DNA of 44,223 nucleotides, from assembly GCA_965603705.1 (NCBI GenBank), contig CBFDDY010000002.1, positions 1 through 44,223 on the forward strand. The letters run 5' to 3'. Origin of the DNA: an uncultured bacterium (GTDB lineage: Bacteria; Acidobacteriota; Aminicenantia; Aminicenantales; Aminicenantaceae). The first letter of the stretch is position 1, and every line of letters starts with the position of its first letter. Of this stretch, positions 11,293-34,174 are shown piece after piece. Under the pieces are notes generated by a model. That model worked only from the letters and a program-made list of their open reading frames with translations, was not told the origin of the DNA and did no database searches. The position numbers and the translations under genes are program-made.

Positions 11293-11295
11293 TCT

Positions 11296-14352: not shown

Positions 14353-14367
14353 AATGGAAAAAATTGC

Positions 14368-18369: not shown

Positions 18370-20499
18370 ATGCCTCCTAAAAAACTATCTGTCATATTTC
18401 TAGTGCTTGTCTTCACCGGAATCTTCTCGCTAAGACTGATTCATCTAGGAGCTGACCCCCCCCACAACCTCAGCAACAGTATGGGATATATGTCAGACCC
18501 GGGAGGATACGTTCATAATGCCCGGAATAAAACCGTCTTTGACAAGTGGGAAATGGACCTATGGAACCCGATGTATATAAGCCCTCTGCCCCATTATATC
18601 ACCTATATTATTTTTTATGTACTAGGGCCTGGAATCGCTCAAATGAATATAGTCCCTGCCCTTTTCAGCTGCCTTATTCTGATATTTTCATTCTTATTAT
18701 TTAAAAGAAATAATAATACTATATTTGCATTCATCGGGATTATTCTACTTGGAGTCAATTATCAGTTTACAATGTTCAGCAGGATTGCAGTAAGAGTGAT
18801 GCCAATGCTGCTTTTCGTTGTATTAGTATTATTTTTCCTTGATACAAAACAAAAAAAAAATCGGATGATATTTCTGGCCGGATCAATAGCATTTATTTCT
18901 TTCACTGTAAAGGGAACTTTTCTTCAAATTTTGCCATCTATTATAATCGGTCTGGCTTTATATATCTTTTTCCAAAAACAAAAAAAAATAATTAAAGTAA
19001 TCCAACCTTTAGCTGTCTTTCTTCTTGGGCTAACTCTCCTATTTTCGCTCTGGATCTTAAGTCTCTATCTTCCTAATAAGGAAATGGTAGCTGCTTACGG
19101 GGGAGAGAATATCAAGTGGCTAACACCAAGGGGATTATCAGATGTTCTTGTTAACTTTTGGAAAAGGCCTCTTTTCTTCTTTAATGAAATGCCGGTTATT
19201 TCTCTATTATCCACTTTATATCTCCTAATAGTTTTTTATAGGATAAGTTCTTCACCCAGGAAGGTACCTCTTTTAGACTGGATTTTTAGCCTGTGGATAA
19301 TCACAAATACATTGTACTATTCTATAATTTTTTACCATCCAGCCAGACATTTTGTTCCGTTAGTTATCCCTCTAATATTTTTAGCCACAGGCTTTCTAAA
19401 ACAGCTCGGCAATTTAAAAGCTATAAAAAAACCTAAAAAAATCCCTTTGCTTTTTTATCCATTCATTTTTTTCTGGTTAATTTTCCCTTTGAGCTGTATT
19501 CAAATTATTAACTCAAGACCTTTAACAATTTCTGAAATGAAGACAAAATTAATCATTGTCTTTATCATATCTTTTATACTGACTGCAGTAACTTTTTTGC
19601 TTATCCGCTTATGGCCCAGCAACTTGAGAATCTCTCTCTCCAAATCAATCCGTATCAGTATGATCACAACTCTGGTTGCGGCATCTATTTTTGTAAACAT
19701 GAAACCTTTTTTACACTGGGCTCTTAATCCCAGTTTCCATATCAGGAATATTTCCCGGGATTTCGGCAAAGCCTATGACAATATGGTTATTGCCGGGCTT
19801 CTTTCCCCGATCATATCATTAGAAAACGGTTATGAAGCTCATCCCTATCGCACAAACTATATTAATCCATATCCTGATTTCCTGCAAAAATTCAATATAA
19901 GCCACATCTTCCTCACAATCCATGCCGGCGGGATTGAGAAGAAGCAATATCAGAGTGAGTTTCCTATGAGCATGCAAAAAGCTAAGCTTGTAGCCAGATA
20001 CCAACTCTGGAAAACCTATGCTGAACTTTATGATATCCAGCCGAAACTGCCAAAACAGAGCAGCCCTGATACGTATGAAGGAGAAATATTTTTCGGAAAA
20101 GGCGGCATTCCCCGTTTCGATATTAATGCGGCAGGAAAATTCGCCTTTCTGTTTGAAAAAAACCGAGAAGAGGGCCTTGCCCAATTAACCGGGAAAGAAT
20201 ATGCCCGAGGTAAGTATCAAGCGGTTTTCCGCTTAAAGGCAACCAAAACCTCAGGAGTGAAGGAAGATCGGTTGGCCAGGATATATATTCTTTCTAAAAA
20301 AAAAGAAAAGCTGATCGCATATAAAGACTTGTATTTGAGAGATATTTCCCCAGCTGGAAAGTATTGTGATATTAAACTCCCCTTTAAATTGAATAAAAAA
20401 AGAGAAATCACATTAAAAATTTATTCGCCGGGAAAAGTCAATCTATGGGTGGATAAGGTTAATATTCAGACCCTAAGCCTAATCCTGAATAGCCGATAA
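18370..20499 (+). CDS. GT-C fold membrane glycosyltransferase family protein (ArnT/PMT, GT39/GT83-like) with C-terminal soluble domain
   Basis: 709 aa with about 12 or more TM helices. The N-terminal block RLIHLGADPPHNLSNSMGYMSDPGGYVHNARNKTVFDKW is typical of this family's first periplasmic loop. A ~230-aa non-hydrophobic C-terminal domain follows. Confidence 0.65.
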   Translation: MPPKKLSVIFLVLVFTGIFSLRLIHLGADPPHNLSNSMGYMSDPGGYVHNARNKTVFDKWEMDLWNPMYISPLPHYITYIIFYVLGPGIAQMNIVPALFSCLILIFSFLLFKRNNNTIFAFIGIILLGVNYQFTMFSRIAVRVMPMLLFVVLVLFFLDTKQKKNRMIFLAGSIAFISFTVKGTFLQILPSIIIGLALYIFFQKQKKIIKVIQPLAVFLLGLTLLFSLWILSLYLPNKEMVAAYGGENIKWLTPRGLSDVLVNFWKRPLFFFNEMPVISLLSTLYLLIVFYRISSSPRKVPLLDWIFSLWIITNTLYYSIIFYHPARHFVPLVIPLIFLATGFLKQLGNLKAIKKPKKIPLLFYPFIFFWLIFPLSCIQIINSRPLTISEMKTKLIIVFIISFILTAVTFLLIRLWPSNLRISLSKSIRISMITTLVAASIFVNMKPFLHWALNPSFHIRNISRDFGKAYDNMVIAGLLSPIISLENGYEAHPYRTNYINPYPDFLQKFNISHIFLTIHAGGIEKKQYQSEFPMSMQKAKLVARYQLWKTYAELYDIQPKLPKQSSPDTYEGEIFFGKGGIPRFDINAAGKFAFLFEKNREEGLAQLTGKEYARGKYQAVFRLKATKTSGVKEDRLARIYILSKKKEKLIAYKDLYLRDISPAGKYCDIKLPFKLNKKREITLKIYSPGKVNLWVDKVNIQTLSLILNSR

Positions 20500-24672: not shown

Positions 24673-26142
24673 TCAATCGCATTTTTTTCGTTTTAAAGAA
24701 AAAAACACAGGAAATAGTTTCATACTAACCTTGAATCGATGACGGACTTCATAAACCGTTTTTACCAGCGGGAAAAATAAGTCATAAACGGATTTTCCTT
24801 TTGATACTTTAAGGCGGCATAACAATTTAATAATAAACACAAAGCGTGGATAGAGAATAGACCAGGGAAAAATCTTGTGATAATAGGCTACATCTTCTTT
24901 GGATATGGAAGGCTGGTCAAGCACGGTTACATCGCTGAAAAAAGCAGTCACCTTCCGCTCGCTGATCCATCCTTGCTCTTCGCACAATTCACCCAGCTTT
25001 GTCCCAGGAAAGGGATAAAAAGTGCTGACATAAACAACATCTGGCTCTAGTGTCCGGTTCAGCTTGATGTTCTTCTTAATAGTCTCGGTAGTTTCATAGG
25101 GGACGCCTACCATATTGAAAGTCCATAATTTTATTCCAGCCGATTTAATTATATGGGCAGCCTCAATAATTTGTTCATCAGAAAGTCCTTTATCCAAAAC
25201 ATTGTTCCTTATATCTTCATCCCCACTTTCTACCCCCATCATCACCATATTGCACCCTGCATCCTTAATAGCCAGCATAAAGTCTTTATCTACTAGATCT
25301 GCCCGAACCGTAATATTAAAGGGAAAACTGAATCGCGACCGATATTTCTCAAAAAAATCCAAAGTCCACTTTTTATTCACACAAATCAACTCATCATCAA
25401 AGACAAGAGACGTGATGTTATTGTACTTTTTAACAAGGGAGGCTATCTCATCCAGGATGCTCTCATGGCTCCTTACTCGGTAATAACGCCCTTTGTGCCG
25501 GTAAATGTCCTGATAAGACGCATTGACACAAAAAGCACACCGAAAAGGGCATCCCCGGCTGCTCCTAACTTCTAAGTACCCATGATAATTCAATAATTTT
25601 TGAAAATCTACAATCTCTCGATCACAAAAGGGCAGAGAATCCAAATCTTCAATCAGCGGCCGTATGGGGTTTTTAATAACCTTCCCCCCGGATTTAAACC
25701 AGAAGTTATCGATTTTCAGGTTATCCGGATGGAAGCGACCTTTATCTTTCATGGCTTCGATTAATTCTAATAAAGCATATTCTCCTTCCCCAAGACAGAT
25801 GCCGAATACACCTCTGATCTTAATACATTCTTCCGGCCTAACCGTAGGATGTACTCCGCCCAGAATAACCGGGAGGCCAAACTCATCATAGATAAAATCC
25901 GCAATTTCCTCGCTGAGATCAACCTGTTGAGAAGTCACAGATATCCCTACTATATCCGGCTGGAAATCCATGATCTTTTTTCTGATTTTCTGGCGCTCTA
26001 AACGATAGGGCGTTAACAAATCCGTGGCATGACCATGTTGTTTCAGTACAGCAGAGATAATTCCAATACCATAATGATAGGTAAACTTCTGCAGGATCAG
26101 AAGCGATGGATGAGGCACAAGATGAAAAAAAAGAACTCTCAT
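24673..26142 (-). CDS. Class B (B12-binding domain) radical SAM enzyme
   Basis: DIVGISVTS and VILGGVHPT mark the B12-binding-type Rossmann domain. SSRGCPFRCAFCVN supplies CX3CX2C. It overlaps the upstream gene by 4 nt. Confidence 0.85.
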   Translation of the reverse strand: MRVLFFHLVPHPSLLILQKFTYHYGIGIISAVLKQHGHATDLLTPYRLERQKIRKKIMDFQPDIVGISVTSQQVDLSEEIADFIYDEFGLPVILGGVHPTVRPEECIKIRGVFGICLGEGEYALLELIEAMKDKGRFHPDNLKIDNFWFKSGGKVIKNPIRPLIEDLDSLPFCDREIVDFQKLLNYHGYLEVRSSRGCPFRCAFCVNASYQDIYRHKGRYYRVRSHESILDEIASLVKKYNNITSLVFDDELICVNKKWTLDFFEKYRSRFSFPFNITVRADLVDKDFMLAIKDAGCNMVMMGVESGDEDIRNNVLDKGLSDEQIIEAAHIIKSAGIKLWTFNMVGVPYETTETIKKNIKLNRTLEPDVVYVSTFYPFPGTKLGELCEEQGWISERKVTAFFSDVTVLDQPSISKEDVAYYHKIFPWSILYPRFVFIIKLLCRLKVSKGKSVYDLFFPLVKTVYEVRHRFKVSMKLFPVFFSLKRKKCD

Positions 26143-27548
26143 CTAGATTTCCCTCTTTTTATACTGCTTTTTAAAACCGCCCAGCCGTTTAAAATCAGGA
26201 CTTTCCACTGATAAAAAGATTTGGAAGATACCGCTATCTTAAATAGATAAGAAGGCCGGAAATAGAATTCTCTGACAGCCCGGTTTCTCCATTCCCAAGC
26301 CTGCTGACGGGAAAATTCAGGAGTTTCCAGCGTCGGGTAGGTCTCAGAGGCATCAAATTCCATGACTTCTTCCTTGAGCCAGCCATGTTTTAAAGCGGCT
26401 TCTCTCAATGATGTTCCCAGGGCTGGCACAGCTATATTAAAAGAGGCAATATCACAATCAATCTCTTTGGCAAACTCTATGGACTTTCGGACCGTCTCCT
26501 CCGTTTCTCCGGGGAGTCCAATGATAAAATGGCCCAGAGTCCTAATTTTAAACTTCCGGCAGAGAGCAAAACCCCTCCTTATCTGGTTCTTATTCACCCC
26601 TTTGGAATACCTCTTCAACAGCTCGTCATCACCGCTTTCCACCCCAAGCAACATAGTATGACATCCTGCCCTCTTCATCCATCCCAGCAGCTCCTCGTCC
26701 AGGGAATTGGCCCGGGAGGAACACGCCCAACTGATATCAAGATTTTCCTTGACTATTTGCCGGCAGAGCTTCAACGTATTCTGACGTTTGGCTTCAAAAG
26801 TAAAATCCGTAAAAAAGACCTCCTTTATACCTAACGAAGCAACATACCGGAGTTCCTCCATTACGTTTTCCACCGCCCGATATTTAAAGTTAAGAACCGA
26901 AGCAGGACAAAAGCTACAGGTGAAGGGGCAACCAAAATTAGTCATAACTGTGGTAAAGGGAAATCGTCTGCCATGCGCCAGCAGATACTTTTTTAAGGGA
27001 AACTTCTCATGCTGGGGCACCGGGAAAGAAAATTCTCCAGGCTTTATCTCTCTTTTCCGGAATTCGATTCCCCCGCCATTCCGAAAAGCCATGGAGCTGA
27101 TACCCTCAAATTCTCCCCGAAGATACGAAAGAATATCTTCGCTGGTATAATCAAACAAAACAGCGTCAAGGCAAGCATACTCATTTAAAAATTTCTTGGC
27201 ATCATAAAGAAGAACATCTCCATTACCTATAATCAAGGGAAGGCGCTTATGCTTGTTGAGCCTGGCAATAAAGGCAAAGTCCTGCTTCCAAGAAGCAATC
27301 CCTGTCAGAAAAATAACCGCTTTATAATCACATTGCTGGATTTTTTCCCAACTTTCTTCAGGCGTCAATCTATCTGCGATGGCATCCAGAATATCCAGAA
27401 CATATTCCTGACCTAATATTCCACTGAGCACCAGCATATCAATGGAAGGCCAATAATAATGGGCTTTGGAAACTCCACTGCAATACATATCCCGCTGGAA
27501 AAGTTTATCACCGGGAGGATTGAGAAGCAGTATCTTATCCATTGCCAT
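26139..27548 (-). CDS. Radical SAM enzyme with divergent N-terminal B12-binding-like domain
   Basis: TNFGCPFTCSFCPAS supplies CX3CX2C. The N-terminal Rossmann-like domain has IIGNGDVLL where the three paralogs have GG-H. It overlaps the upstream GT2 gene by 14 nt. Confidence 0.8.
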   Translation of the reverse strand: MAMDKILLLNPPGDKLFQRDMYCSGVSKAHYYWPSIDMLVLSGILGQEYVLDILDAIADRLTPEESWEKIQQCDYKAVIFLTGIASWKQDFAFIARLNKHKRLPLIIGNGDVLLYDAKKFLNEYACLDAVLFDYTSEDILSYLRGEFEGISSMAFRNGGGIEFRKREIKPGEFSFPVPQHEKFPLKKYLLAHGRRFPFTTVMTNFGCPFTCSFCPASVLNFKYRAVENVMEELRYVASLGIKEVFFTDFTFEAKRQNTLKLCRQIVKENLDISWACSSRANSLDEELLGWMKRAGCHTMLLGVESGDDELLKRYSKGVNKNQIRRGFALCRKFKIRTLGHFIIGLPGETEETVRKSIEFAKEIDCDIASFNIAVPALGTSLREAALKHGWLKEEVMEFDASETYPTLETPEFSRQQAWEWRNRAVREFYFRPSYLFKIAVSSKSFYQWKVLILNGWAVLKSSIKRGKSR

Positions 27549-28248
27549 TATCCTTCATTTTGTAAAAAAATCTATATCTGATCAAGGCTTTAACGCAAAA
27601 ATAAAAATCACTCCAGCGTACTTTTTTGCCGGTGTCTTTCCTTCTGGGAATATATTCAACCGGCATTTCTAAGATCTTATACCCCTTTTTTAGGAGCTTG
27701 GCTGTGATCTCAACAGTTGAGCCCCATCTATCGCTTTGGATGTCAAGGTCGCGTAGTATTTTTGTTTTTGTCACTTGAAACATAGTTAAAACATCTGTCA
27801 GGTTAGTTTTGAAAAGCCGATCGGTCAGCTCGATCAGGATCACATTGGCAAGATAGGCCCCGATCCCCATACCCTGGATAAAACCTTTTCCCAAAAAGCG
27901 TGAACCAAATACGACCTCTGTTTCCTCATCTATCAAGGGTTCCAACAGCTTGGAGTAGTTGCTGGGATCAAGCTCTAAGTCAGCATCCTGAAATATAGTA
28001 ATAACTCCCTGAGCATGGTTTAAAGCGGTTTTGATTCCTGCACCCCTACCGAGATTAGAATCATGAGTTATTATTCTAATGTCAGGATCATTCTCTAACG
28101 TCTTTAAGAGTTTGGGGGTATCATCATCAGACCCATCATCCACAATAAGGATCTCCTTATCAATATCAACGGCTCTGACCTTTTTTACGACCTTCAAGAT
28201 CGTGTCTTGTTCATTAAAAACTGGGATGATAACCGTAAGTTCTTTCAT
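27535..28248 (-). CDS. Family 2 glycosyltransferase, Dpm1/ArnC/GtrB-like
   Basis: VIIPVFNE, LIVDDGSDDDT and FQDADLE (DxD). The start is set at the ATG at 28248 (MKELTVIIP), 1 nt after the upstream stop. The ORF track extends to 28335, inside the upstream gene. Confidence 0.85.
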   Translation of the reverse strand: MKELTVIIPVFNEQDTILKVVKKVRAVDIDKEILIVDDGSDDDTPKLLKTLENDPDIRIITHDSNLGRGAGIKTALNHAQGVITIFQDADLELDPSNYSKLLEPLIDEETEVVFGSRFLGKGFIQGMGIGAYLANVILIELTDRLFKTNLTDVLTMFQVTKTKILRDLDIQSDRWGSTVEITAKLLKKGYKILEMPVEYIPRRKDTGKKVRWSDFYFCVKALIRYRFFYKMKDNGNG

Positions 28249-28249
28249 T

Positions 28250-29668
28250 TTATGTAAAAAATAATCGTACAGCTGTTTTGGCTTTCCGGGCAAACTCAAT
28301 AAACGATTTAACCTGTCGTAATTGACTCCAGACATATTTGGGGCGGTAATAATAACTTAAATGCGCCTTCCGCTGCCACTTTTCCAATTCGCGCGGAGAA
28401 AAATTCTCGGTCCACCATTGGGGAGAAAAATCTCCATGCGGATAAGCAGAGAATTCTCTCCAAAAATCCCCCTTTAAAATGCCTTTTTCCCGGCCGCTCT
28501 CATAGAGTTCGGTGGCTGGGAAAGGGGTTGTGATCAAGAACTGGGGAAAATCCGGGTTAAGTTCCTTTGCCAAGGCTATGCTGGATTTAATCTCCTTTTC
28601 TGTTTCTCCTGGGGAACCCAGCATAAAATAGGCAAATGTGACTATTCCAGCTTTTTTCGCCATCTTAAAGGCGTTCCTAATCTGCTCGAGAGTAATGTCT
28701 TTTTTTAGGTTTTTTAGCACTCCGGCATCTCCGCTCTCAACTCCGAACCGAATCCGGTTACATCCGGCTTGAGCAACTCTATCCAGAAGCTCTTGATCGA
28801 CCGTATCCACACGCGATCTTAGATCCATTGTGATTTTTAGCTTTTTATCTATAATCAAATCCGCAATCGCTAACACTCTTTTTCTGTTGAGGGTGAAGGT
28901 ATCGTCAATAATGTCAAAATCTGTAATGCCTTTGCTAATACATTCTTCAATCTCTCTGACAACATTTTCCGGCGACCGCATCCGGCAGATTTGACCATCT
29001 TTCTTGGTGCAAAATGTACAATTGAAAGGGCACCCTCTGGATGTTAACAGACTGGTCATAAATTCTTTTCCCTTGCCCAAAAGATTATAGTACTTCCTTC
29101 CCGGCACAAGATCTCTATCAGGAAAAGGAAGGTTATCGAGATCCCGGATGAATTCTCTCCTTGAATTAATAACAACAGTTCCGTTTTGTTTAAAACCAAC
29201 ACCTTTAATCCCCGAGAGTCCTCTGCCATTCGCAATCGCATCTAGTAATTCGCTGAAGGCATATTCGCCTTCGCCAACAACAATTGAATCGACCTCCGGC
29301 TGGCTGACCATCTCTTTAGGATAAATAGTAGGGTGCGTCCCCCCGAATACTACATGGCTTTGCGGATTTACCTTTTTGACAATACGTGCTACTTTTAAGG
29401 CATCGAGCAAGAGAAAAGTCATACAGGAGATACCCACGATATCAGGGCGTTTCTTTGCTATTGTCTTTTCGATCTGGGAATAACCCATCCTCTCTACTTG
29501 AGTATCGATCACTTCTATATGAAACCGATCTCCGTGTATCTTTTTGGCAGAAGCGGCAATGTATAGCAATCCCATGGGGGGATAAAATCCCATCTCTTCC
29601 GTTAAAGAATCAGGGGCAAAGGTTCTAACAAGATTTTCAGTAGGAGGATTAATCAAGAGAATGTTCAT
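28250..29668 (-). CDS. Class B (B12-binding domain) radical SAM enzyme
   Basis: MNILLINPP, DIVGISCMT and VVFGGTHPT mark the B12-binding domain. TSRGCPFNCTFCTKK supplies CX3CX2C. Confidence 0.85.
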   Translation of the reverse strand: MNILLINPPTENLVRTFAPDSLTEEMGFYPPMGLLYIAASAKKIHGDRFHIEVIDTQVERMGYSQIEKTIAKKRPDIVGISCMTFLLLDALKVARIVKKVNPQSHVVFGGTHPTIYPKEMVSQPEVDSIVVGEGEYAFSELLDAIANGRGLSGIKGVGFKQNGTVVINSRREFIRDLDNLPFPDRDLVPGRKYYNLLGKGKEFMTSLLTSRGCPFNCTFCTKKDGQICRMRSPENVVREIEECISKGITDFDIIDDTFTLNRKRVLAIADLIIDKKLKITMDLRSRVDTVDQELLDRVAQAGCNRIRFGVESGDAGVLKNLKKDITLEQIRNAFKMAKKAGIVTFAYFMLGSPGETEKEIKSSIALAKELNPDFPQFLITTPFPATELYESGREKGILKGDFWREFSAYPHGDFSPQWWTENFSPRELEKWQRKAHLSYYYRPKYVWSQLRQVKSFIEFARKAKTAVRLFFT

Positions 29669-29731
29669 AGTTTCCTTGGTTCAGTAAAAAAACCTAATAT
29701 TTATTTTTTGTTTCTTTTTTTCTCAGGGGAC

Positions 29732-29760
29732 ATAGTAAGAAATAGCCTTATTTTTGTCAA
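29732..29760 (-). promoter_or_regulatory. Sigma70-like promoter TTGACA-N17-TACTAT
   Basis: On the minus strand, TTGACA is the complement of 29755-29760. A 17-nt spacer follows, then TACTAT (complement of 29732-29737). This lies about 60 nt upstream of the ATG at 29668. Confidence 0.5.
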
Positions 29761-29803
29761 GGTGAAGAATCAAAAATGAGAATTGTCCTAATAAATATCT
29801 TCA

Positions 29804-30871
29804 TTAAACAGAGTCATGATTAAACCAAGAAAGATGCCAATCTGTTAACTGGGTAGGGGAAAGATCTTTCTTAGAAGAATGCACAATAAGGGTAAATTTT
29901 TCCGGCGTTTTGATGTAGAAAAATTTTTTCAAAACAGGCAATAGAGGATCATGGGGATTAAGCAGACAGGCACTTATTTCCACTCTTTCCTTAACCGCCT
30001 CCTGATGAACCGCCCGCAAAAGCGCCTTTCCTATATCTTTGCGCTCTGGAGGAAATAAAATATCCACAATGGCCAAGACCTTAAATCCTTTCATAGGCAT
30101 ACAACGCATCACTACATAGCCACACACCAAAGATCCTTCAGATGCAGCCAGGATAGTATATTCTCGCCCTGGCACACGTTTAAAACGCCAATTCATGATA
30201 TCAGGAGTGCGAAGAGTTGAGATAGGAAAATAGACTTGGGCCTTATTCAGGAGAGAGACAAAGCTATGATCAAACCGACTGTACTCTCGCATCTTTACAT
30301 CATGTTTTAAAGCACGCCAAGAAAAACTCAAAAACCATCTCGCAAGAGATAAAAACGGCCGGCATAGACTAAAAAGGAACCTGCCTTTAAGAAAGCGGCG
30401 GGAAAAGACGGCTAAATCATATGGCCGGGCATAAACAGGAAAATTGCCCACTTGCTTAAACCCGAAGGCAAGATGAGCCCTCAATACCTGGGGAATATTG
30501 ATCAAAGCGTACACAAAATCAATATTAGATTCCTTGTACTTACTAAGCAGAGCTATCTCCAGTTTCGGGAATAACATCTCTTTGCGAAAATCCTCATCTA
30601 CCATGAGGTCGCAAATAAATCCCCCCCTATAAATCTTCCCATGGATTAAGAATTTTAGGGGAGCAAGGGCACCATGGCCTACAATTTCCCCACAGGAATC
30701 AGCCCCAACCATGACCATTCCCTCGGAGGCAGGATACTCCCGAAACAGCCACTTCCAGAACAAAGTATATGCTTTAGTATCCCCAAATTCACCCGGCCAG
30801 ATCTGAGCATGGAGCCTTGCTATGCCATCTACATCTTCATCATGGCCTCTATGGATGCTGAATTCAGGCAT
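29804..30871 (-). CDS. Two-lobed GNAT-family acyltransferase
   Basis: 355 aa. The N-lobe (GEIVGHGALAPL...GGFICDLMVDEDFR) and C-lobe (GYVVMRC...LAIVDILFPPERKDIGKALLRAVHQEA) both fit the GNAT beta-alpha pattern. It overlaps the upstream deacetylase gene by 8 nt. Confidence 0.65.
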   Translation of the reverse strand: MPEFSIHRGHDEDVDGIARLHAQIWPGEFGDTKAYTLFWKWLFREYPASEGMVMVGADSCGEIVGHGALAPLKFLIHGKIYRGGFICDLMVDEDFRKEMLFPKLEIALLSKYKESNIDFVYALINIPQVLRAHLAFGFKQVGNFPVYARPYDLAVFSRRFLKGRFLFSLCRPFLSLARWFLSFSWRALKHDVKMREYSRFDHSFVSLLNKAQVYFPISTLRTPDIMNWRFKRVPGREYTILAASEGSLVCGYVVMRCMPMKGFKVLAIVDILFPPERKDIGKALLRAVHQEAVKERVEISACLLNPHDPLLPVLKKFFYIKTPEKFTLIVHSSKKDLSPTQLTDWHLSWFNHDSV

Positions 30872-31790
30872 TGCAGTTACTCTTTTCTATATTTTTTTCA
30901 AGAATCTGGACATAATCCAAGAATCTCATAGGGACATATCTTTTCAGAAGGAACTCAAGCTTGGGAAAAGTAGACTTTCTGTTATAATAAACCAACTTGT
31001 TTAATAAAGGGTTTTTCTCTACCTTGAATTTCTTTTCCCTTGTATCGATGTCATATGGATGGATATAGCCAACTAGAGGGCTCCCTCTTTTAAGATGCTT
31101 CCGGCAGAATTGGTGGAGCGCAATTTTTGGGAAAAACCTCATGTATATCCCACCGGCAAAAGGTATTTTGAAACCAATGATCGATGTGATGGAAATTGGC
31201 AATTCCCACAGTCCGTTATCCATTCTCAAAGGGTATGCAGGGAAACCATTCCATCCATATAAAGGATTTCTTGCCGGCAAAACCGAGCTGGAATATCTAA
31301 ACCCAAGCTCACTCAAGACTTCCCAGGCCCATTGAGTAGATTCAATTAAAGAAAAATCCGGAGCTCGAAAGCCGTAAACAGAGTCAACCCCGAGCCTGTC
31401 TAAAGCGTCCATATTCCTTAAAAGATTTTCCCTAAATGTCTCTGGAGTCATTCTGTCCAATTGCAAGTGGTCATATGTATGACATCCCAGCTCATGCCCC
31501 GCCTTATGGACCTGTTTGATCAAACTTCCTATTTCCCTTGCTGTATCCCCTACTGCAAAAAAGGTTCCTTTAATACAATTGTCATCGAAAAACCGGAGGA
31601 TATGCTCAATCATTTCAGGAACCCGAAAGGGAAAATTCAGGCCGGATTTAGCCTGGTAGCGGATGTCCTCAAGATCAACACTAAGAAGATATTTGGGGCG
31701 GATATCTCCCTCCTTGAAATTATAACGACCAGCAAAGGCAATAGTTTTAGTCATTGCAACTAAGGCTTCGGACTTTTTTAAATCTATCAC
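30864..31790 (-). CDS. Polysaccharide deacetylase (NodB homology domain), resembles the PEP-CTERM/EPS-locus subfamily
   Basis: LLSVDLEDIRY and TFFAVGDTAREIGSLIKQVHKAGHELGCHTYDH (Asp plus His-His metal motifs). The C-terminal extension is like that of the EPS-locus subfamily. An alternative start at ATG 31754 (MTKTIAF) would give an 8-nt overlap with the ligase stop. Confidence 0.8.
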   Translation of the reverse strand: MIDLKKSEALVAMTKTIAFAGRYNFKEGDIRPKYLLSVDLEDIRYQAKSGLNFPFRVPEMIEHILRFFDDNCIKGTFFAVGDTAREIGSLIKQVHKAGHELGCHTYDHLQLDRMTPETFRENLLRNMDALDRLGVDSVYGFRAPDFSLIESTQWAWEVLSELGFRYSSSVLPARNPLYGWNGFPAYPLRMDNGLWELPISITSIIGFKIPFAGGIYMRFFPKIALHQFCRKHLKRGSPLVGYIHPYDIDTREKKFKVEKNPLLNKLVYYNRKSTFPKLEFLLKRYVPMRFLDYVQILEKNIEKSNCNA

Positions 31791-33102
31791 TATGGAGTTT
31801 TTCAGCGATTATCGAGATTTTTCTGGGAATTTTATAATTTTCCAGTATCTGGCTGCAATTTTGTTGTAGACGCAAAAAAAATTTTTTTTGGTCTTCACAT
31901 TCAAATAACCTTACTTTGGCGCAGACGATATTACCAGTAATAAAATTTTTCTCTCCATAGACCGTTACTTCGGCCACATTCTCCATTTCTAGGATCACAC
32001 TTTCTACTTCAGAAGGATACACTTTTTCTCCCCCCACATTGATAATTTCTGACTGTCTGCCTAGAATTTTGATAAAGTCTCCGTCTGTCAATACATAATC
32101 TCCTGTATTAAACCAGCCATCTTCGGTGAAAGGGCTCTCGGCATTGAGATAACCGAGCATAGCAGATTTGGCTTTAATCTGAAGGATTCCCTTAACAATC
32201 CGTGTTTGGAAGCCCTCACCCCCCACTTTTACCCAAAGCGAATCCGAACTTTTTGATTTCGAGCGGAGAATGCCAAGCTCGGAAAGCCCATAGGTCTGCA
32301 ATAATCGGATTTTTGGGAAGAGCTTATGAAACTTTTTTAAAGTACTTTCAGCCATCGGTTCTGTGCCATAGGTCACTGTTTTAAGTGAATCTAGCGTGTA
32401 TCTTGTATAGGCCTCACTTAAAAGGATCAGGTTAATGAAAGTGGGTGAAGTCGGGAGTAGTTCTACCCGGTATTTTTCTACAGCACTAAGGACTCTATCT
32501 GGATTGCGGTCCTGGACCGTGACGATACATCCGGTATTGGACAGAGTGTAGAGCATGGTATTTACCCCGCCGATATGGTCGTATAGCAGGAAAGTGATGG
32601 TCCTTAAAGAACTTCTCGGCACTTTGAATTTTTCTAATAAATTTTTCATATCATGTACGGCAGCTTTACTCTTTCCTGTCGATCCGGAAGAAAAAAGCAC
32701 AAGCCCGGGATGATTCAATTGTCTGAGTTTTCTAAAAAACTTATGATCAGCTTTACGGGAAAGCGACATTATCTCAACCTTATCACTATCACCTAAAAAA
32801 AAAGCGACTTCTCCCTGGGCAATTTCCATAAATGTATGCTTTTTGGCAGCAACAGTACTCGTAAGCGGGACTAAGATACAGCTATGCTCAAGTAAACATA
32901 AAAAAAGAGCAACAGCATTTGGAGAAAAATCCCCCTCCAGAATCACAACTGTGCCCTTAGGGATACTCCGTTTTTTGAGCTTTTCTTTCCAGTTTTGTAT
33001 CCGCTCCAAAAGCCAGCCATAGCTATATGCCTTATCGTTCCAGATAATGGCGTCTTTGCTTTTATTGTGTTCAAACTTTTGCAGCATAAAATCTATGAAC
33101 AC
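31747..33102 (-). CDS. ANL-superfamily adenylate-forming enzyme (acyl-CoA/acyl-ACP ligase)
   Basis: LFSSGSTGKSKAAV (P-loop/A3 motif), YGLSE, NTGDY and GRQSEIINVGGEKVYPSEVE (A8). The GTG start overlaps the TAG stop of the SDR gene by 1 nt. An alternative ATG lies at 33085. Confidence 0.85.
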   Translation of the reverse strand: MFIDFMLQKFEHNKSKDAIIWNDKAYSYGWLLERIQNWKEKLKKRSIPKGTVVILEGDFSPNAVALFLCLLEHSCILVPLTSTVAAKKHTFMEIAQGEVAFFLGDSDKVEIMSLSRKADHKFFRKLRQLNHPGLVLFSSGSTGKSKAAVHDMKNLLEKFKVPRSSLRTITFLLYDHIGGVNTMLYTLSNTGCIVTVQDRNPDRVLSAVEKYRVELLPTSPTFINLILLSEAYTRYTLDSLKTVTYGTEPMAESTLKKFHKLFPKIRLLQTYGLSELGILRSKSKSSDSLWVKVGGEGFQTRIVKGILQIKAKSAMLGYLNAESPFTEDGWFNTGDYVLTDGDFIKILGRQSEIINVGGEKVYPSEVESVILEMENVAEVTVYGEKNFITGNIVCAKVRLFECEDQKKFFLRLQQNCSQILENYKIPRKISIIAEKLHSDRFKKVRSLSCND

Positions 33103-33803
33103 TAAATTCCCCCAAGATAAATAACCTGCCCTGTCACAAAATCACTTTCGGGGCGGAGGAAAAAATCAGTTACATTGGAGATGTCTCTCAGCTCACCATA
33201 ACGATTGATGGCTTGGCGCTGAATCAATGCCGCTAGTTTTTTCTCAGACAGTGACTTAATCAAATCCGTCTTTATAGGAGTCGGGCCAATAGCATTAACC
33301 GTAATGTTATCAGCACCCAATTCTCTAGCCAATACACGGGTTAAAGTCTCAATCGCAGACTTGGAAGAAGCATACACTGCCTCTCCTGCCAACGATAAAG
33401 GAACCGCCACCGTCGTGAAGTTGACGATCCGCCCAAACTTGTTTTTTCTCATCAGCTTTGCAGCTTCTCTGCAGAATAAAAAAGTTCCGAAATAATTTGT
33501 TTCAAAAATCTTCCTTACGGTTGCAAGAGGAGTAAGTAGGGCATGGTTCATTGAGGCAATACCGGCATTATTGATTAAAACATCTAAATGATGATAGGTT
33601 TTATAGAGTTCTGCAAACAGCTCTTTAACGCATTTTTCATCAGATACATCCAGACAGAAATGATGGTAGTTGGGAAACTGGGACTTCACCGGCCTCCGGC
33701 TGCAACCAATGACCTGATCTCCTTTTTCCGTATAGTATTTAGATAGATAATTTCCGATTCCCTTTCTCGTTCCTGTAATCAGGATCACTCGGTTTTTATC
33801 CAT
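33102..33803 (-). CDS. Classical short-chain dehydrogenase/reductase, 3-oxoacyl-ACP reductase (FabG)-like
   Basis: ILITGTRKGIGN (TGxxxGIG), NNAG and YASSKSAIE (YxxxK). It overlaps the ACP gene by 8 nt. Confidence 0.85.
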   Translation of the reverse strand: MDKNRVILITGTRKGIGNYLSKYYTEKGDQVIGCSRRPVKSQFPNYHHFCLDVSDEKCVKELFAELYKTYHHLDVLINNAGIASMNHALLTPLATVRKIFETNYFGTFLFCREAAKLMRKNKFGRIVNFTTVAVPLSLAGEAVYASSKSAIETLTRVLARELGADNITVNAIGPTPIKTDLIKSLSEKKLAALIQRQAINRYGELRDISNVTDFFLRPESDFVTGQVIYLGGI

Positions 33804-34104
33804 CTTTTTTCTCTTCCAGAAGCTGACGTATGTATTCTGCTAAAAAACCAACTGTCCGAAAAGGACTCTTCTTTTGCGACATTGCCTTTTCATCGGCCAG
33901 AGTCACGACCTTGTCCAACTTCTCCATTATTTTTTGTTCAACAGCCAAGATCAAGTCAACAAGCCCCAGAGAATCCAGCTGCCCGGAATAGCCGAACAAA
34001 ACCGTATCCTCCGATTTCTTCAGCTGAACTTCTTGGGAGCGTTGAAGATTTAAATCCTCAATGGCTTCGAAGATTATTTGCTCTATTCTATTTCCGTCAT
34101 CCAT
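33796..34104 (-). CDS. Acyl carrier protein
   Basis: 102 aa and acidic. QLDSLGLVDLILAVE contains the DSL phosphopantetheine-attachment serine motif. Confidence 0.8.
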   Translation of the reverse strand: MDDGNRIEQIIFEAIEDLNLQRSQEVQLKKSEDTVLFGYSGQLDSLGLVDLILAVEQKIMEKLDKVVTLADEKAMSQKKSPFRTVGFLAEYIRQLLEEKKDG

Positions 34105-34145
34105 TCGATTATCTCTTTATATACTCCTGCTAACGTTAATAAATC

Positions 34146-34174
34146 ATGCTAAACAAAATCAGCTATAGTGTCAA
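34146..34174 (-). promoter_or_regulatory. Sigma70-like promoter TTGACA-N17-TAGCAT
   Basis: On the minus strand, TTGACA is the complement of 34169-34174. A 17-nt spacer follows, then TAGCAT (complement of 34146-34151). A second TTGACA lies 11 nt further upstream. The promoter is about 40 nt upstream of the ACP ATG. Confidence 0.45.

What the first reader, a model, noticed from the sequence alone, without database searches (positions are those of the whole stretch)
24673..34104. Nine-gene block: an ACP-dependent acylation operon followed by a class-B-rSAM / GT2 / rSAM / rSAM operon, a candidate undescribed glycolipid or glycan tailoring system
Seen in the sequence:
- Nine co-directional minus-strand genes form two units, each preceded by a TTGACA-N17 promoter (34146-34174 and 29732-29760).
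- Within each unit the genes overlap by 1-14 nt or sit 1 nt apart, which suggests translational coupling.
- Unit 1 contains an ACP (DSL serine), an SDR (YxxxK), an ANL adenylating enzyme (SGSTGKSK), a NodB deacetylase (VDLED, HxxxH) and a two-lobed GNAT.
- Unit 2 contains three mutually divergent radical SAM proteins, each with an N-terminal B12-binding-type domain and CX3CX2C, interleaved with a Dpm1/ArnC-like GT2.
- The middle rSAM (26139-27548) has GNGD where the other three class B proteins in the window have GG-H, so its cofactor use may differ.

Established knowledge:
- ACP + adenylating enzyme + reductase + acyltransferase sets in O-antigen loci build unusual N-acyl groups on amino sugars. 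An example is the rfbKLMNO tetronate module of Vibrio cholerae O1.
- Exosortase/PEP-CTERM EPS loci pair a NodB-subfamily deacetylase with an acyl-CoA ligase.
- In hopanoid side-chain tailoring, a GT2 (HpnI), a deacetylase (HpnK) and a class B rSAM (HpnJ) act in sequence on a lipid-bound GlcNAc.
- Class B rSAMs methylate or rearrange unactivated carbons.

Inference: a polyprenyl- or lipid-linked amino sugar is deacetylated, re-acylated with an ACP-borne (hydroxy)acyl group, and then radical-tailored up to three times. I know of no characterised pathway with this gene combination. That statement is from memory, not a search.
Basis: partly seen in the sequence, partly recalled or inferred. Interest (0 to 1): 0.8.

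Follow-up and report, generated by a model that had tools for sequence, protein, structure and literature searches.

The report
Amino-sugar tailoring gene block, Aminicenantes
Nine neighbouring genes of an uncultured Aminicenantes bacterium look like an uncharacterised pathway that deacetylates a lipid-carried amino sugar, re-acylates it from a dedicated carrier protein and remodels it with radical SAM enzymes before display on the cell surface; its modules recur, separately and together, in several phyla.

Summary
Nine co-directional minus-strand genes (24673-34104) encode a carrier protein, SDR, adenylating enzyme, NodB/CE4 deacetylase, tandem GNAT, class B rSAM, GT2, a B12-domain-less rSAM and a second class B rSAM. 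Both promoter-like sites are conserved in orthologous loci.

No protein reaches the curated cut-off of any named family (HpnJ, BchE, AprD4, XrtA deacetylase or ligase, ArnC, PpgS).

Comparative genomics changes the picture. The block is not one fixed system but at least two modules.
- Module A is ACP + loader + a 355-aa tandem GNAT, usually next to NodB. It occurs in Aminicenantes, Nitrospirota and Planctomycetota. Its loader is interchangeable: ANL+SDR here, and FkbH (a glyceryl-ACP loader) plus a MaoC/SDR fusion or a VOC protein elsewhere.
- Module B is a polyprenyl-phosphate-type GT2 + rSAM2 + class B rSAM(s). It is far more widespread, reaching Nealsonbacteria, and sits near a GT-C transferase and often a DegT aminotransferase. 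It often lacks module A.

The nine-gene order is kept in three Aminicenantes-like lineages.

Best reading: cytoplasmic tailoring of a polyprenyl-phosphate-linked amino sugar, handed to a GT-C for surface display. The chemistry is inferred, not shown. I found no characterised precedent. I rate it a new variant of known kinds, with moderate-to-high interest.

The parts
34146..34174 (-). Promoter-like site upstream of the carrier-protein gene (TTGACA-N17-TAGCAT)
   Evidence: 10 of 12 matches. CTTGACAC and TTTGTTTA(A/G)C are conserved in L001, L030 and L009.
33796..34104 (-). Small carrier protein (102 aa). Probable divergent ACP, with Ser45 in an invariant D-S-L.
   Evidence: weak matches to ACP and DltC only; the orthologues overlap FkbH genes; no Pfam hit for the window protein itself.
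33102..33803 (-). FabG-like short-chain dehydrogenase/reductase (233 aa; TGxxxGIG, YASSK)
   Evidence: PF13561, 1.2e-45; best match is 3-oxoacyl-ACP reductase, 158 bits, below the cut-off of 298.
31747..33102 (-). ANL adenylating enzyme (451 aa; SGSTGKSK), the presumed carrier-protein loader
   Evidence: nearest solved structures are 4-chlorobenzoate, MenE and malonyl-CoA ligases. No curated family cut-off is reached.
30864..31790 (-). NodB/CE4 deacetylase with a DUF3473 C-terminal domain. The true start is probably the ATG at 31754. VDLED, HTYDH and RAP motifs are present.
   Evidence: TIGR03006 scores 175 bits against a cut-off of 276; no TM segment.
29804..30871 (-). Tandem-GNAT acyltransferase (355 aa), a member of an unnamed family
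   Evidence: AF2 mean pLDDT 89.6; the fold resembles N-myristoyltransferase and Eis; 446 representative clusters at E<=1e-30; no NCBIfam hit.
29732..29760 (-). Internal promoter-like site upstream of rSAM1 (TTGACA-N17-TACTAT)
   Evidence: the -35 and -10 regions are conserved in L001, L008 and L030.
28250..29668 (-). rSAM1, a class B (B12-binding domain + radical SAM) enzyme of 472 aa
   Evidence: PDB matches are AprD4, QCMT, TokK, CysS and OxsB. HpnJ and BchE score about 201 bits, below their cut-offs.
27535..28335 (-). GT2 glycosyltransferase of the polyprenyl-phosphate type. The probable start is at 28248, giving 237 aa.
   Evidence: nearest solved structures are ArnC, DPMS and GtrB. AglJ 85 bits and PpgS 64 bits, both below cut-off.
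26139..27548 (-). rSAM2 (469 aa): a radical SAM core with a degenerate N-terminal Rossmann domain (GNGD). No B12-binding Pfam match.
   Evidence: AprD4 (6fd2), 115 bits; the motif is family-wide; at least 1438 homologues at E<=1e-20.
24673..26142 (-). rSAM3, a second class B radical SAM enzyme (489 aa). Optional in related loci.
   Evidence: absent in L009 and L040; L043 has only a 33%-identical class B rSAM at the far edge of the locus.
18370..20499 (+). GT-C (PMT_2/ArnT-like) membrane glycosyltransferase with at least 10 TM segments. Presumed final transferase. Outside the finding's coordinates.
   Evidence: PF13231.. A GT-C is linked to the rSAM/GT2 unit in L001, L009, L030, L040, L041, L043 and L044.
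11946..15516 (+). rSAM0 (a fourth class B rSAM) - NAD epimerase/dehydratase - PseC/ArnB-like aminotransferase operon. Presumed supply of the amino sugar. Outside the finding's coordinates.
   Evidence: PseC 398 bits against a cut-off of 423. Conserved next to the rSAM/GT2 unit in L009, L040 and L043.

Best explanation
The nine genes are the cytoplasmic tailoring part of a larger cell-envelope glycoconjugate island (about 35 kb) in an Aminicenantes bacterium.

Proposed pathway (all steps inferred):
1. The ArnC/DPMS/GtrB-like GT2 puts an N-acetylated amino sugar on a polyprenyl phosphate.
2. The cytoplasmic NodB/CE4 enzyme removes the N-acetyl group, as ArnD does in the Arn pathway and as deacetylases do in the related lipid A aminosugar pathways.
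3. The tandem GNAT re-acylates the free amine with a short (C3-C4) hydroxyacyl group carried on the dedicated 102-aa carrier protein. The ANL enzyme loads that group and the FabG-like SDR reduces it; for example, an oxo-acyl group becomes a hydroxyacyl group.
4. The cobalamin-type rSAM1 and rSAM3 C-methylate, or otherwise modify, unactivated carbons of the sugar or its acyl group.
5. rSAM2 lacks a recognisable cobalamin domain and is closest to AprD4 and HpnJ. It is proposed to do non-methylating radical chemistry on the sugar: dehydration or deoxygenation, epimerisation, or ring rearrangement.
6. The finished lipid-linked sugar is flipped and transferred by the neighbouring GT-C (18370-20499) to a periplasmic or surface acceptor, either LPS or the adjacent PKD-domain surface proteins.

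What is shown: the domain identities, the conserved gene linkage, the modularity and the interchangeable loaders.

What is inferred: every chemical step, the identity of the sugar and of the acyl group, the order of steps and the acceptor.
For: Domain calls and motifs.

GT2: its nearest solved relatives are all polyprenyl-phosphate glycosyltransferases (ArnC, DPMS, GtrB).

Localisation: none of the nine proteins has a TM segment, while the neighbouring PMT_2 protein has at least 10.

The GT2 + rSAM2 pair (+ class B rSAM) recurs near a GT-C or large multi-TM protein, often with DegT:
- L040
- L041, Nealsonbacteria, where GT2 and rSAM2 overlap by 4 nt
- L042, which has no GT-C in the 14.5-kb locus
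- L043
- L044

GNAT355 is preceded by carrier protein + loader genes in about 22 of 24 non-redundant loci that have enough upstream sequence. NodB is adjacent in most.

The loader is interchangeable:
- ANL+SDR: window, L009, L020, L030, L033.
- FkbH, above its curated cut-off (290-304 bits against 147), plus a MaoC/SDR fusion or a VOC protein.
- FkbH is known only as a glyceryl-ACP loader (established knowledge). No ketosynthase is present in any locus, so the acyl group should stay short.

In L040 a SAM methyltransferase follows NodB where the window has the ACP cassette. This fits alternative capping of the same freed amine.

The GNAT is a confident tandem-GNAT model resembling N-myristoyltransferase, an amine N-acyltransferase.

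rSAM2's nearest solved structure is the cobalamin-independent sugar diol-dehydratase AprD4 (review PMC12931638).

Sugar supply: a PseC/ArnB-like aminotransferase operon lies in the same island.
Against: - No biochemical data exist for any member.
- No protein reaches any curated family threshold, so every substrate assignment is by analogy.
- The GT2 has no predicted TM helix, whereas ArnC and GtrB are membrane-anchored. It could therefore be an ordinary soluble glycan GT.
- No flippase was recognised in the window.
- The carrier-protein call is weak at sequence level, and the single-sequence AF2 model was poor (pLDDT 57).
- Modules A and B each occur without the other, so they may act on different substrates that only share an island.
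- In the FkbH loci the neighbours look like soluble UDP-sugar enzymes of the Polysacc_synt_2/epimerase type. This would allow tailoring at the nucleotide-sugar level instead.
Confidence: 0.5

Rival explanations
1. Tailoring happens at the nucleotide-sugar level. NodB, the GNAT and the rSAMs act on soluble UDP-(amino)sugars. The GT2 is an ordinary glycan-chain glycosyltransferase of an O-antigen, capsule or S-layer glycan pathway. The N-acylated, radical-modified sugar is incorporated during repeat-unit assembly rather than through a polyprenyl-phosphate monosaccharide and a GT-C.
For: - The GT2 has no TM helix.
- The FkbH-type loci carry pairs of Polysacc_synt_2/epimerase-type UDP-sugar enzymes directly upstream of the carrier protein.
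- L042 has GT4s and a Bac_transf priming transferase nearby.
- All nine proteins are soluble.
Against: - The nearest solved relatives of the GT2 are all polyprenyl-phosphate GTs.
- A GT-C (PMT_2 or a large multi-TM protein) is linked to the GT2/rSAM2 unit in five of the six lineages examined.
- The window has no Wzx, Wzy, Wzz or ABC exporter.
Confidence: 0.22
2. The two units are functionally independent operons that merely share an envelope-glycan island. The ACP/SDR/ANL/NodB/GNAT unit decorates one glycan. The rSAM/GT2 unit makes a different product.
For: - Each unit has its own conserved promoter-like site.
- Relatives at 60-65% rSAM2 identity keep NodB-rSAM1-GT2-rSAM2 without the ACP cassette.
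- The ACP cassette occurs without GT2/rSAM2 in L033, L020 and L034.
- The family sizes differ greatly: 51 clusters against more than 1400.
Against: - The same nine-gene order is kept in three lineages whose GNATs are only 53-85% identical.
- NodB is the shared neighbour of both modules.
- In Nitrospirota-type loci a class B rSAM sits between the GNAT and NodB (L016, L035, L036).
- L040 has a methyltransferase where the window has the cassette, which suggests alternative processing of one intermediate.
Confidence: 0.15
3. Lipid head-group tailoring in the manner of hopanoid HpnI/HpnK/HpnJ or archaeal calditol synthesis. The GT2 glycosylates a membrane lipid, NodB deacetylates it, and an HpnJ-like rSAM contracts the hexosamine ring to a cyclitol, giving a novel glycolipid.
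For: - HpnJ is the best or joint-best NCBIfam match of all three rSAMs: 201.5 (level with BchE, 201.7), 197 and 150 bits.
Against: - All scores are far below the HpnJ cut-off of 577.6, and BchE scores equally for rSAM1.
- The window has no squalene-hopene cyclase or other hpn genes, and none are listed in the gene tables of the related loci.
- Linkage to GT-C, DegT and PKD surface proteins points to glycan transfer rather than a free lipid.
Confidence: 0.07
4. A secondary-metabolite cluster (aminoglycoside-like, or another small glycoside) rather than an envelope component.
For: - AprD4 (apramycin pathway) is the nearest solved relative of rSAM2 and rSAM1.
- ANL + carrier protein + SDR, FkbH and class B rSAMs are all typical of natural-product clusters.
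Against: - No scaffold genes are present: no 2-deoxy-scyllo-inosose synthase, PKS, NRPS or precursor peptide. No resistance or export genes were recognised.
- The genes are consistently embedded among envelope genes: GT-C, PKD surface proteins, secreted sulfatase-family proteins and an AMIN/OMP protein.
- The AprD4 model scores 130 bits against a cut-off of 500.
Confidence: 0.05

Closest known systems
Lipid A and cell-wall aminosugar modification pathways that use a polyprenyl-phosphate carrier: ArnB/C/D/T (L-Ara4N), Francisella FlmF2/NaxD/FlmK (GalN), Bordetella LgmABC (GlcN), mycobacterial PpgS/Rv3779 (GalN)
   Same: - A DPM1/ArnC-type GT2.
- A cytoplasmic deacylase acting after lipid loading.
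- A GT-C as final transferase.
- A DegT aminotransferase supplying the amino sugar.
- ArnC, DPMS and GtrB are the nearest solved relatives of the GT2.
- The DegT protein scores 387 bits on the ArnB model and 398 on PseC.
   Different: - No protein reaches the curated cut-offs: ArnC 52 against 529, ArnD 22 against 382, PpgS 64 against 370, ArnB 387 against 631.
- The known pathways leave the amine free. Here a carrier-protein-dependent GNAT is placed to re-acylate it.
- None of the known pathways contains radical SAM enzymes.
Deacetylate-then-N-acylate logic of Nod factor synthesis (NodC GT2, NodB deacetylase, NodA acyltransferase, NodF special ACP) and of lipid A synthesis (LpxC/LpxD)
   Same: - A GT2, a NodB-family deacetylase and a dedicated ACP feeding an N-acyltransferase that re-acylates the freed sugar amine.
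- PF01522 is met and the NodB metal and catalytic motifs are present.
   Different: - The acyltransferase is a tandem GNAT, neither NodA nor LpxD.
- The loader is an ANL enzyme or FkbH, with no ketosynthase, so the acyl group is probably C3-C4 rather than a fatty acid.
- The GT2 is a 237-aa DPM1-like enzyme, not a processive chitin-oligomer synthase.
- The NodB model TIGR04243 scores 38 bits against a cut-off of 240.
FkbH glyceryl-ACP pathway of polyketide biosynthesis (methoxymalonyl-ACP, tetronates, the bryostatin D-lactate starter)
   Same: - In Nitrospirota- and Planctomycetota-type relatives the carrier-protein gene overlaps an FkbH gene that passes the curated cut-off.
- The FkbH gene is followed by a MaoC dehydratase/SDR fusion or a VOC protein.
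- FkbH + dehydratase + ketoreductase is the domain set that yields lactyl-ACP in bryostatin (from memory).
   Different: - The window itself has ANL+SDR instead of FkbH.
- No locus has PKS modules. The acyl group would go to a sugar amine through a GNAT, a use of FkbH for which I found no report.
Hopanoid side-chain tailoring HpnI (GT2) / HpnK (deacetylase) / HpnJ (class B rSAM)
   Same: - The triad of GT2, deacetylase and class B rSAM.
- HpnJ is the best or joint-best NCBIfam model for rSAM1-3.
   Different: - Scores are 150-201 bits against a cut-off of 577.6.
- The deacetylase here is CE4/NodB.
- No hopanoid genes are present.
- There are three to four rSAM paralogues plus an ACP cassette, and the block is linked to a GT-C.
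AprD4/AprD3 (apramycin C3'-deoxygenation): a cobalamin-independent class-B-like rSAM diol dehydratase plus a reductase
   Same: - rSAM2's nearest solved structure is AprD4 (6fd2; E 3e-32, core residues 175-398).
- Both lack a recognisable cobalamin-binding domain yet keep an N-terminal Rossmann-like domain.
- Both act, or are presumed to act, on amino sugars.
   Different: - The AprD4 family model scores 130 bits against a cut-off of 500.
- The similarity is limited to the radical SAM core.
- The context is an envelope island, not an aminoglycoside cluster.
Vibrio cholerae O1 rfbKLMNO (ACP, ligase, dehydrogenase, acyltransferase for the N-tetronyl group of perosamine) and exosortase-associated deacetylase/ligase sets
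   Same: Both use a dedicated ACP, an adenylating enzyme, a redox enzyme and an acyltransferase to make an unusual N-acyl group on an amino sugar. For the exosortase sets, the TIGR03006 and TIGR03098 models give partial matches.
   Different: - TIGR03006 scores 175 against 276 and TIGR03098 scores 78 against 592, so neither membership is met.
- The window has no exosortase or PEP-CTERM genes.
- No model or sequence of the V. cholerae set was available for a test.

Membership tests
Class B (cobalamin-dependent) radical SAM enzymes | N-terminal B12-binding domain (PF02310) plus a radical SAM core with CX3CX2C (PF04055) | tested here: met
   rSAM1: PF02310 6.2e-24 and PF04055 4.5e-29. rSAM3: 3e-17 and 2.5e-21. 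The cysteine motif is present in both. This applies to rSAM1 and rSAM3 only.
Class B (cobalamin-dependent) radical SAM enzymes | The same features, tested for rSAM2 (26139-27548) | tested here: not met
   PF04055 only; no PF02310 match. G(N/S)G(D/G) replaces GGxH across 118 homologues. The nearest solved structure is AprD4, which does not bind cobalamin. Actual cobalamin binding cannot be tested with these tools.
HpnJ (hopanoid cyclitol ether rSAM, TIGR03471) | Score at or above the curated cut-off of 577.6 bits, and a hopanoid (shc/hpn) gene context | tested here: not met
   201.5, 197.3 and 149.5 bits. No shc or hpn genes in the window.
AprD4 family diol dehydratase (NF033070) | Score at or above the cut-off of 500 bits | tested here: not met
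   rSAM2 129.9, rSAM1 112.1 and rSAM3 83.7 bits. The match covers only the core.
BchE anaerobic cyclase (TIGR02026) | Score at or above the cut-off of 481 bits | tested here: not met
   rSAM1 201.7, rSAM3 128.2 and rSAM2 85.5 bits.
XrtA/PEP-CTERM polysaccharide deacetylase (TIGR03006) and exosortase-associated ligase (TIGR03098) | Scores at or above 276.2 and 592.35 bits respectively, with an exosortase nearby | tested here: not met
   175.2 and 78.4 bits. No exosortase among the window ORFs.
CE4 / NodB-homology deacetylases (PF01522) | Pfam gathering score met, an Asp-containing motif 1, and an H-x-x-x-H metal motif | tested here: met
   65.6 bits against a cut-off of 23.1. VDLED at residue 38 and HTYDH at residue 104. 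PDB matches are all CE4 deacetylases.
Acyl carrier proteins (PF00550) | Pfam match, and a conserved Ser in D-S-L at the start of helix 2 | tested here: inconclusive
   The window protein has no Pfam hit. 5 of 10 orthologues hit PF00550 weakly, best E 0.0096. A profile of the orthologues hits mainly ACPs in the PDB at E 0.025-0.3. D44-S45-L46 is invariant. The gene overlaps FkbH genes elsewhere. Phosphopantetheinylation cannot be tested with these tools.
Polyprenyl-phosphate glycosyltransferases of GT2 (ArnC NF007986, PpgS NF058614, AglJ TIGR04182) | Score at or above the curated cut-offs (529, 370 and 325 bits) | tested here: not met
   52.4, 64.3 and 84.7 bits. However, the nearest solved structures are ArnC, DPMS and GtrB. 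This is resemblance, not membership.
FkbH glyceryl-ACP loading system (TIGR01686) | An FkbH-domain protein adjacent to the carrier protein | tested here: not met
   The window has none; it has ANL+SDR instead. The feature is met in related loci L034 and L035: 290 and 304 bits against a cut-off of 146.65.
Arn pathway (ArnB aminotransferase NF008658, ArnD NF011923) | Scores at or above 631 and 382 bits | tested here: not met
   DegT (14368-15516) scores 387.5 bits. NodB scores 21.7 bits.
Vibrio cholerae O1 rfbKLMNO tetronate module | Orthology to RfbK-O | not tested
No model or reference sequence was available in the tools.

The most novel reading that the evidence does not exclude
The GT2 + rSAM2 + class B rSAM + GT-C association marks a widespread pathway, from Aminicenantes to CPR Nealsonbacteria, that nobody has characterised. 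In this reading, radical SAM enzymes remodel a polyprenyl-phosphate-linked amino sugar (C-methylation, deoxygenation or ring rearrangement) before it is transferred to the cell surface. A plug-in cassette of carrier protein, loader (ANL/SDR or FkbH) and tandem GNAT installs short hydroxyacyl amides on it. This would be a new class of bacterial surface sugars. It would also be the first use of FkbH and of class B rSAM chemistry on lipid-linked glycan precursors.
Probability: 0.3. Interest if true: 0.8.

Novelty: new variant of a known kind. Interest (0 to 1): 0.6.

Why it matters
Most of the more than 220,000 B12-type radical SAM enzymes have no known function (review PMC12931638). Very few are known to act on sugars. 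A conserved genomic link between such enzymes, a polyprenyl-phosphate-type GT2 and a GT-C transferase gives a concrete, testable substrate hypothesis for a large orphan family: at least 1438 rSAM2 homologues.

The second module has interchangeable ANL/SDR and FkbH loaders feeding one family of tandem GNATs. It would explain how bacteria make unusual short N-acyl groups on surface amino sugars. It would also extend FkbH chemistry beyond polyketides.

The organisms involved (Aminicenantes, Nitrospirota, Planctomycetota, CPR) are mostly uncultured. Their envelope chemistry is essentially unknown, so the genes would have to be studied heterologously.

Tried and rejected
- Looking up the window's own contig by exact protein found nothing on record.
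- The hopanoid, exosortase, BchE, AprD4, ArnC and PpgS memberships were all tested and not met.
- AF2 on the carrier protein alone gave an unusable model (pLDDT 57).
- I first read the two 770- and 887-aa sulfatase-family proteins as EptA-like lipid A phosphoethanolamine transferases and rejected that. They have a single N-terminal hydrophobic segment, and their best models are arylsulfatases.
- Rfam and tRNA scans of the window found nothing, so there is no cobalamin or SAM riboswitch.
- Nine literature searches found no description of this gene combination. Terms covered Aminicenantes + radical SAM, DUF3473, FkbH + LPS/O-antigen/capsule, B12 radical SAM + polyprenyl, 3-hydroxybutanoyl + ACP, and radical SAM + undecaprenyl phosphate + GT-C. 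The library covers only open-access papers and bioRxiv, so this absence is weak evidence.
- A PDB sequence search with the GT-C protein gave no hit.

Full report
**1. Observation**

Pfam assigns the following:
- a FabG-like SDR;
- an ANL adenylating enzyme;
- a NodB/CE4 deacetylase with a DUF3473 tail;
- a GNAT with matches in both halves;
- a B12-binding + radical SAM protein (rSAM1);
- a GT2;
- a radical SAM protein with no B12-binding match (rSAM2);
- a second B12-binding + radical SAM protein (rSAM3).

The four class B-like proteins of the window are 26-34% identical to each other. The GNGD peculiarity is a family trait, G(N/S)G(D/G), across 118 rSAM2 homologues.

With longest-ORF starts, two junctions look like long overlaps (-86 and -44 nt). 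Internal ATGs give a 1-nt gap and an 8-nt overlap. For GT2, the orthologue gene call in L030 supports this with the same 1-nt gap.

The two promoter-like sites (34174-34146 and 29760-29732) are the best minus-strand matches and lie in the only two real gaps. Their -35 and -10 regions are conserved in loci whose proteins are only 53-79% identical. That is better evidence than the consensus match itself. The region as a whole is not clearly enriched for such matches (35 against 25 +/- 5 in shuffles).

The soft spot is the 'ACP'. The window protein has no Pfam hit even at E<5, and its only PDB sequence match is DltC at E 0.38. The indirect evidence for a carrier protein is as follows:
- Ten orthologues share an invariant D-S-L.
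- Five of them hit PF00550 weakly, and it is the only family hit by more than one member.
- Their profile hits mainly ACPs in the PDB, at E 0.025-0.3.
- In other phyla the gene overlaps an FkbH gene.

I accept it as a divergent carrier protein, with that caveat.

**2. Family membership**

None of the nine proteins reaches the curated cut-off of any NCBIfam model:

| Model | Score (bits) | Cut-off (bits) |
|---|---|---|
| HpnJ | 201 / 197 / 150 | 578 |
| BchE | 202 | 481 |
| AprD4 | 130 | 500 |
| XrtA deacetylase (TIGR03006) | 175 | 276 |
| Exosortase-associated ligase (TIGR03098) | 78 | 592 |
| AglJ | 85 | 325 |
| PpgS | 64 | 370 |
| ArnC | 52 | 529 |
| ArnD | 22 | 382 |

The GNAT has no NCBIfam hit at all. 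The block therefore cannot be filed under the hopanoid, exosortase or Arn systems.

**3. Surroundings and origin**

An Aminicenantes MAG contig (L001, JAUWNW010000011) is collinear with the window at 85-96% protein identity. A metagenome contig (L008) is 97-99% identical. The window is therefore from an Aminicenantes bacterium.

The nine genes sit in a cell-envelope island of about 35 kb:
- a SPASM rSAM, a hexapeptide acetyltransferase and a GDSL protein;
- a second DPM1/AglJ-like GT2 (6866-7546);
- two secreted sulfatase-family proteins;
- an 8-TM protein;
- an operon of a fourth class B rSAM, an NAD epimerase/dehydratase and a PseC/ArnB-like aminotransferase (11946-15516; PseC 398 bits against a cut-off of 423);
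- two paralogous PKD-domain surface proteins flanking a GT-C (PMT_2) with at least 10 TM segments (18370-20499);
- a membrane-anchored phosphodiesterase-family protein.

All nine proteins of the finding lack TM segments, so they work in the cytoplasm or at its membrane face. There are no shc/hpn genes, no exosortase and no Wzx/Wzy genes. The window contains no riboswitch or tRNA.

**4. Comparative genomics: module A**

I anchored on the GNAT because its flanks cover both units. Its family is small in the word-indexed search (51 clusters, all from metagenomes or MAGs). An exhaustive profile search finds 446 representative clusters at E<=1e-30, nearly all about 355-370 aa.

Across 47 fetched loci (tables) three things stand out.

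First, the full nine-gene order is kept in three lineages: L001/L008; L009, with GNAT 54% identical; and L030-32, with GNAT 53% identical. L009 lacks rSAM3.

Second, in more distant loci (Nitrospirota, Planctomycetota and unassigned; GNAT about 40% identical) the conserved set is carrier protein, loader, GNAT, usually with NodB adjacent. A class B rSAM follows the GNAT in L003 and lies between the GNAT and NodB in L014 (rSAM0-like), L016, L035 and L036.

Third, the loader is interchangeable. It is SDR+ANL in the window, L009, L020/21, L030-33 and, in part, L023/24. Elsewhere it is an FkbH-domain protein (290-304 bits against a cut-off of 147) followed by either a MaoC-dehydratase/SDR fusion or a Glyoxalase_4/VOC protein.

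About 22 of 24 non-redundant loci with enough upstream sequence have such a loader gene directly upstream of the GNAT. The exceptions are the most distant relatives (at most 30% identity; L005/6 and L027).

FkbH is known only as the enzyme that loads a glyceryl unit onto a discrete ACP (established knowledge). No locus has a ketosynthase. This supports the carrier-protein call, and it implies a short acyl group. The specific roles are inference:
- FkbH + dehydratase + ketoreductase is the domain set that yields lactyl-ACP in the bryostatin loading module (from memory).
- A VOC protein could epimerise the 2-position, as methylmalonyl-CoA epimerase does.
- By parsimony, the ANL+SDR version would load a small oxo-acid and reduce it on the carrier.

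**5. Comparative genomics: module B**

rSAM2 has a much larger family: 1438 hits at E<=1e-20 among the 8000 candidates scored, many of them 42-76% identical. Its contexts show an independent and older association.

| Locus | rSAM2 identity | Gene order or content |
|---|---|---|
| L040 | 65% | NodB-methyltransferase-rSAM1-GT2-rSAM2, with the same PKD/GT-C/DegT/Epim/rSAM0/GDSL neighbours. No ACP, SDR, ANL, GNAT355 or rSAM3. |
| L043 | 60% | GDSL-rSAM0-Epim-DegT-(a 285-aa GNAT)-NodB-rSAM1-GT2-rSAM2-GT-C-PKD-PKD |
| L041 (complete Nealsonbacteria genome) | 45% | GT2 and rSAM2 overlap by 4 nt. A PMT_2 GT-C and several small rSAMs lie nearby. |
| L042 | 44% | GT2-amine oxidase-class B rSAM-rSAM2 |
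| L044 | 44% | PMT_2-582 aa-DegT-class B rSAM-GT2-(transposase)-rSAM2-class B rSAM-GT2-rSAM |

The conserved core is therefore a DPM1-type GT2 with rSAM2 and at least one class B rSAM. A GT-C is nearby in four of these five lineages, and DegT in three.

The ACP/SDR/ANL/GNAT cassette is an optional insertion upstream of NodB in one Aminicenantes subclade. rSAM3 is also optional. In L040 a SAM-dependent methyltransferase follows NodB where the window has the cassette, which suggests alternative capping of the same freed amine.

**6. Individual proteins**

- GNAT. The alignment-based AF2 model is confident (pLDDT 89.6, pTM 0.88). It is a tandem GNAT whose best PDB fold matches are N-myristoyltransferases (E about 1e-16, TM 0.6-0.66) and an Eis-like protein. 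These are amine N-acyltransferases built from two GNAT lobes.
- GNAT donor site. The R-x-x-G-x-A motif expected for pantetheine-phosphate binding is visible only in the C lobe (RKDIGKAL; G281 nearly invariant and L284 invariant). The C lobe is therefore probably the donor site (inference).
- GT2. Its nearest solved structures are ArnC, DPMS and GtrB, all polyprenyl-phosphate glycosyltransferases.
- rSAM2. Its nearest solved structure is AprD4 (115 bits; the next best is 48 bits). According to a 2026 review, AprD4 does not bind cobalamin despite a Rossmann-like N-domain (PMC12931638).
- rSAM1. It also matches the cobalamin enzymes QCMT, TokK, CysS and OxsB over its N-domain.
- NodB. All its PDB matches are CE4 deacetylases.

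**7. Mechanism proposed**

The proposal is inferred from sections 3-6.
1. The GT2 loads an N-acetylated amino sugar on a polyprenyl phosphate.
2. NodB deacetylates it at the cytoplasmic face.
3. The tandem GNAT re-acylates the amine with a short hydroxyacyl group from the carrier protein. The ANL enzyme loads the group and the SDR reduces it.
4. rSAM1 and rSAM3 C-methylate the sugar or its acyl group.
5. rSAM2 performs a cobalamin-independent radical rearrangement, dehydration or epimerisation.
6. The product is flipped and transferred by the GT-C to LPS or to the neighbouring PKD-domain proteins.

What is shown is the domain content, the conserved linkage and the modularity. The substrates, the order of steps and the acceptor are not shown.

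The main rival is the same chemistry on soluble UDP-sugars with an ordinary GT2 (probability about 0.22). A further possibility is that the two units act on different products (about 0.15). The hopanoid-like glycolipid and secondary-metabolite readings are unlikely (about 0.07 and 0.05).

**8. Comparison with known systems, and novelty**

The logic combines three known kinds:
- Arn/Lgm/Flm/PpgS-type aminosugar modification on a polyprenyl-phosphate carrier with a GT-C;
- NodB/NodA/NodF-type or LpxC/LpxD-type deacetylation followed by ACP-dependent N-acylation;
- sugar-modifying class B or AprD4-like rSAMs known from antibiotic and hopanoid pathways.

Four things appear undescribed:
- the conserved coupling of rSAM2 and class B rSAMs to a DPM1-type GT2 and a GT-C;
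- the tandem-GNAT family itself;
- its interchangeable ANL/SDR and FkbH loaders;
- the use of FkbH outside polyketide-type pathways.

Nine literature searches found no description. The searchable library is limited to open-access papers and bioRxiv. I therefore rate this a new variant of known kinds, not categorically new, with interest 0.6.

- No characterised cluster with this order was found.
- The two operons do co-occur outside this genome, but not obligately.
- The rSAMs do not fall into any functionally defined family.

Noticed in passing
window 15596-22860; also L001, L009, L040, L043: Two paralogous PKD-domain proteins (845 and 764 aa, 41% identical) flank the GT-C (PMT_2) gene. This PKD / GT-C / PKD neighbourhood is kept in all four Aminicenantes-like relatives examined. 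The PKD proteins may be the glycosylation targets, which would make this protein glycosylation rather than LPS modification.
   Followed up: partly
window 11946-15516: A fourth class B rSAM overlaps an NAD epimerase/dehydratase gene by 17 nt, and a PseC/ArnB-like aminotransferase follows (398 bits against a PseC cut-off of 423). The trio is conserved in L009, L040 and L043. A class B rSAM coupled to nucleotide-sugar 4-amination is itself uncharacterised.
   Followed up: partly
L034:6804-9915, L035:7716-9844, L036, L038, L039, L002, L003: In Nitrospirota- and Planctomycetota-type loci the carrier protein is followed by an FkbH protein of about 565 aa, with an unassigned N-terminal domain of about 200 aa. 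Next comes either a MaoC-dehydratase/SDR fusion or a Glyoxalase_4 (VOC) protein, then the tandem GNAT. I found no report of FkbH in a glycan context.
   Followed up: partly
L040:5951-7497: A relative with 65% rSAM2 identity has NodB followed by a class I SAM methyltransferase, where the window has the ACP/SDR/ANL/GNAT cassette. This suggests N-methylation as an alternative to N-acylation of the freed amine.
   Followed up: no
window 23063-24502: A membrane-anchored Phosphodiest-family (nucleotide pyrophosphatase/phosphodiesterase) gene lies between rSAM3 and the PKD gene. It is absent at that position in the close relative L001, where rSAM3 is followed directly by the PKD gene. Distant homologues occur in L011/L034.
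   Followed up: partly
window 7000-11500 and 34000-37000: Two stretches have markedly lower G+C (0.32-0.35 against about 0.42 elsewhere). They hold the two sulfatase-family genes (770 and 887 aa, 29% identical, each with one N-terminal hydrophobic segment), an 8-TM protein and a 156-aa protein, neither of which has a family match. This may indicate horizontal acquisition. The 887-aa gene is nevertheless conserved in L001.
   Followed up: no
window 1287-2267; L030, L033, L034, L036: A SPASM-domain radical SAM gene recurs in these glycan islands. In the window and L030 it sits next to a sodium:dicarboxylate symporter and a hexapeptide acetyltransferase. In L033, L034 and L036 it sits next to a GFO_IDH_MocA oxidoreductase. 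No peptide substrate is evident, so it may act on a sugar.
   Followed up: no
L042:6729-8147, L044:1-397, L036:1-1213, L005/L006: An FAD amine-oxidase / UDP-galactopyranose-mutase-like (Amino_oxidase, NAD_binding_8, GLF) gene recurs near the GT2/rSAM or GNAT/NodB genes in several distant loci. It is absent from the window.
   Followed up: no
L044:7369-7890: A DDE_3 transposase fragment sits between GT2 and rSAM2 in one lineage. It was seen on several independent contigs, so the operon is interrupted there.
   Followed up: no
window 34146-34185 (minus strand): Two tandem TTGACA hexamers lie 11 nt apart upstream of the carrier-protein gene. Only the downstream one, with the following TTTGTTTA(A/G)C, is conserved in L030 and L009. 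The intergenic region is shared with the divergently transcribed sulfatase-family gene at 34267.
   Followed up: partly
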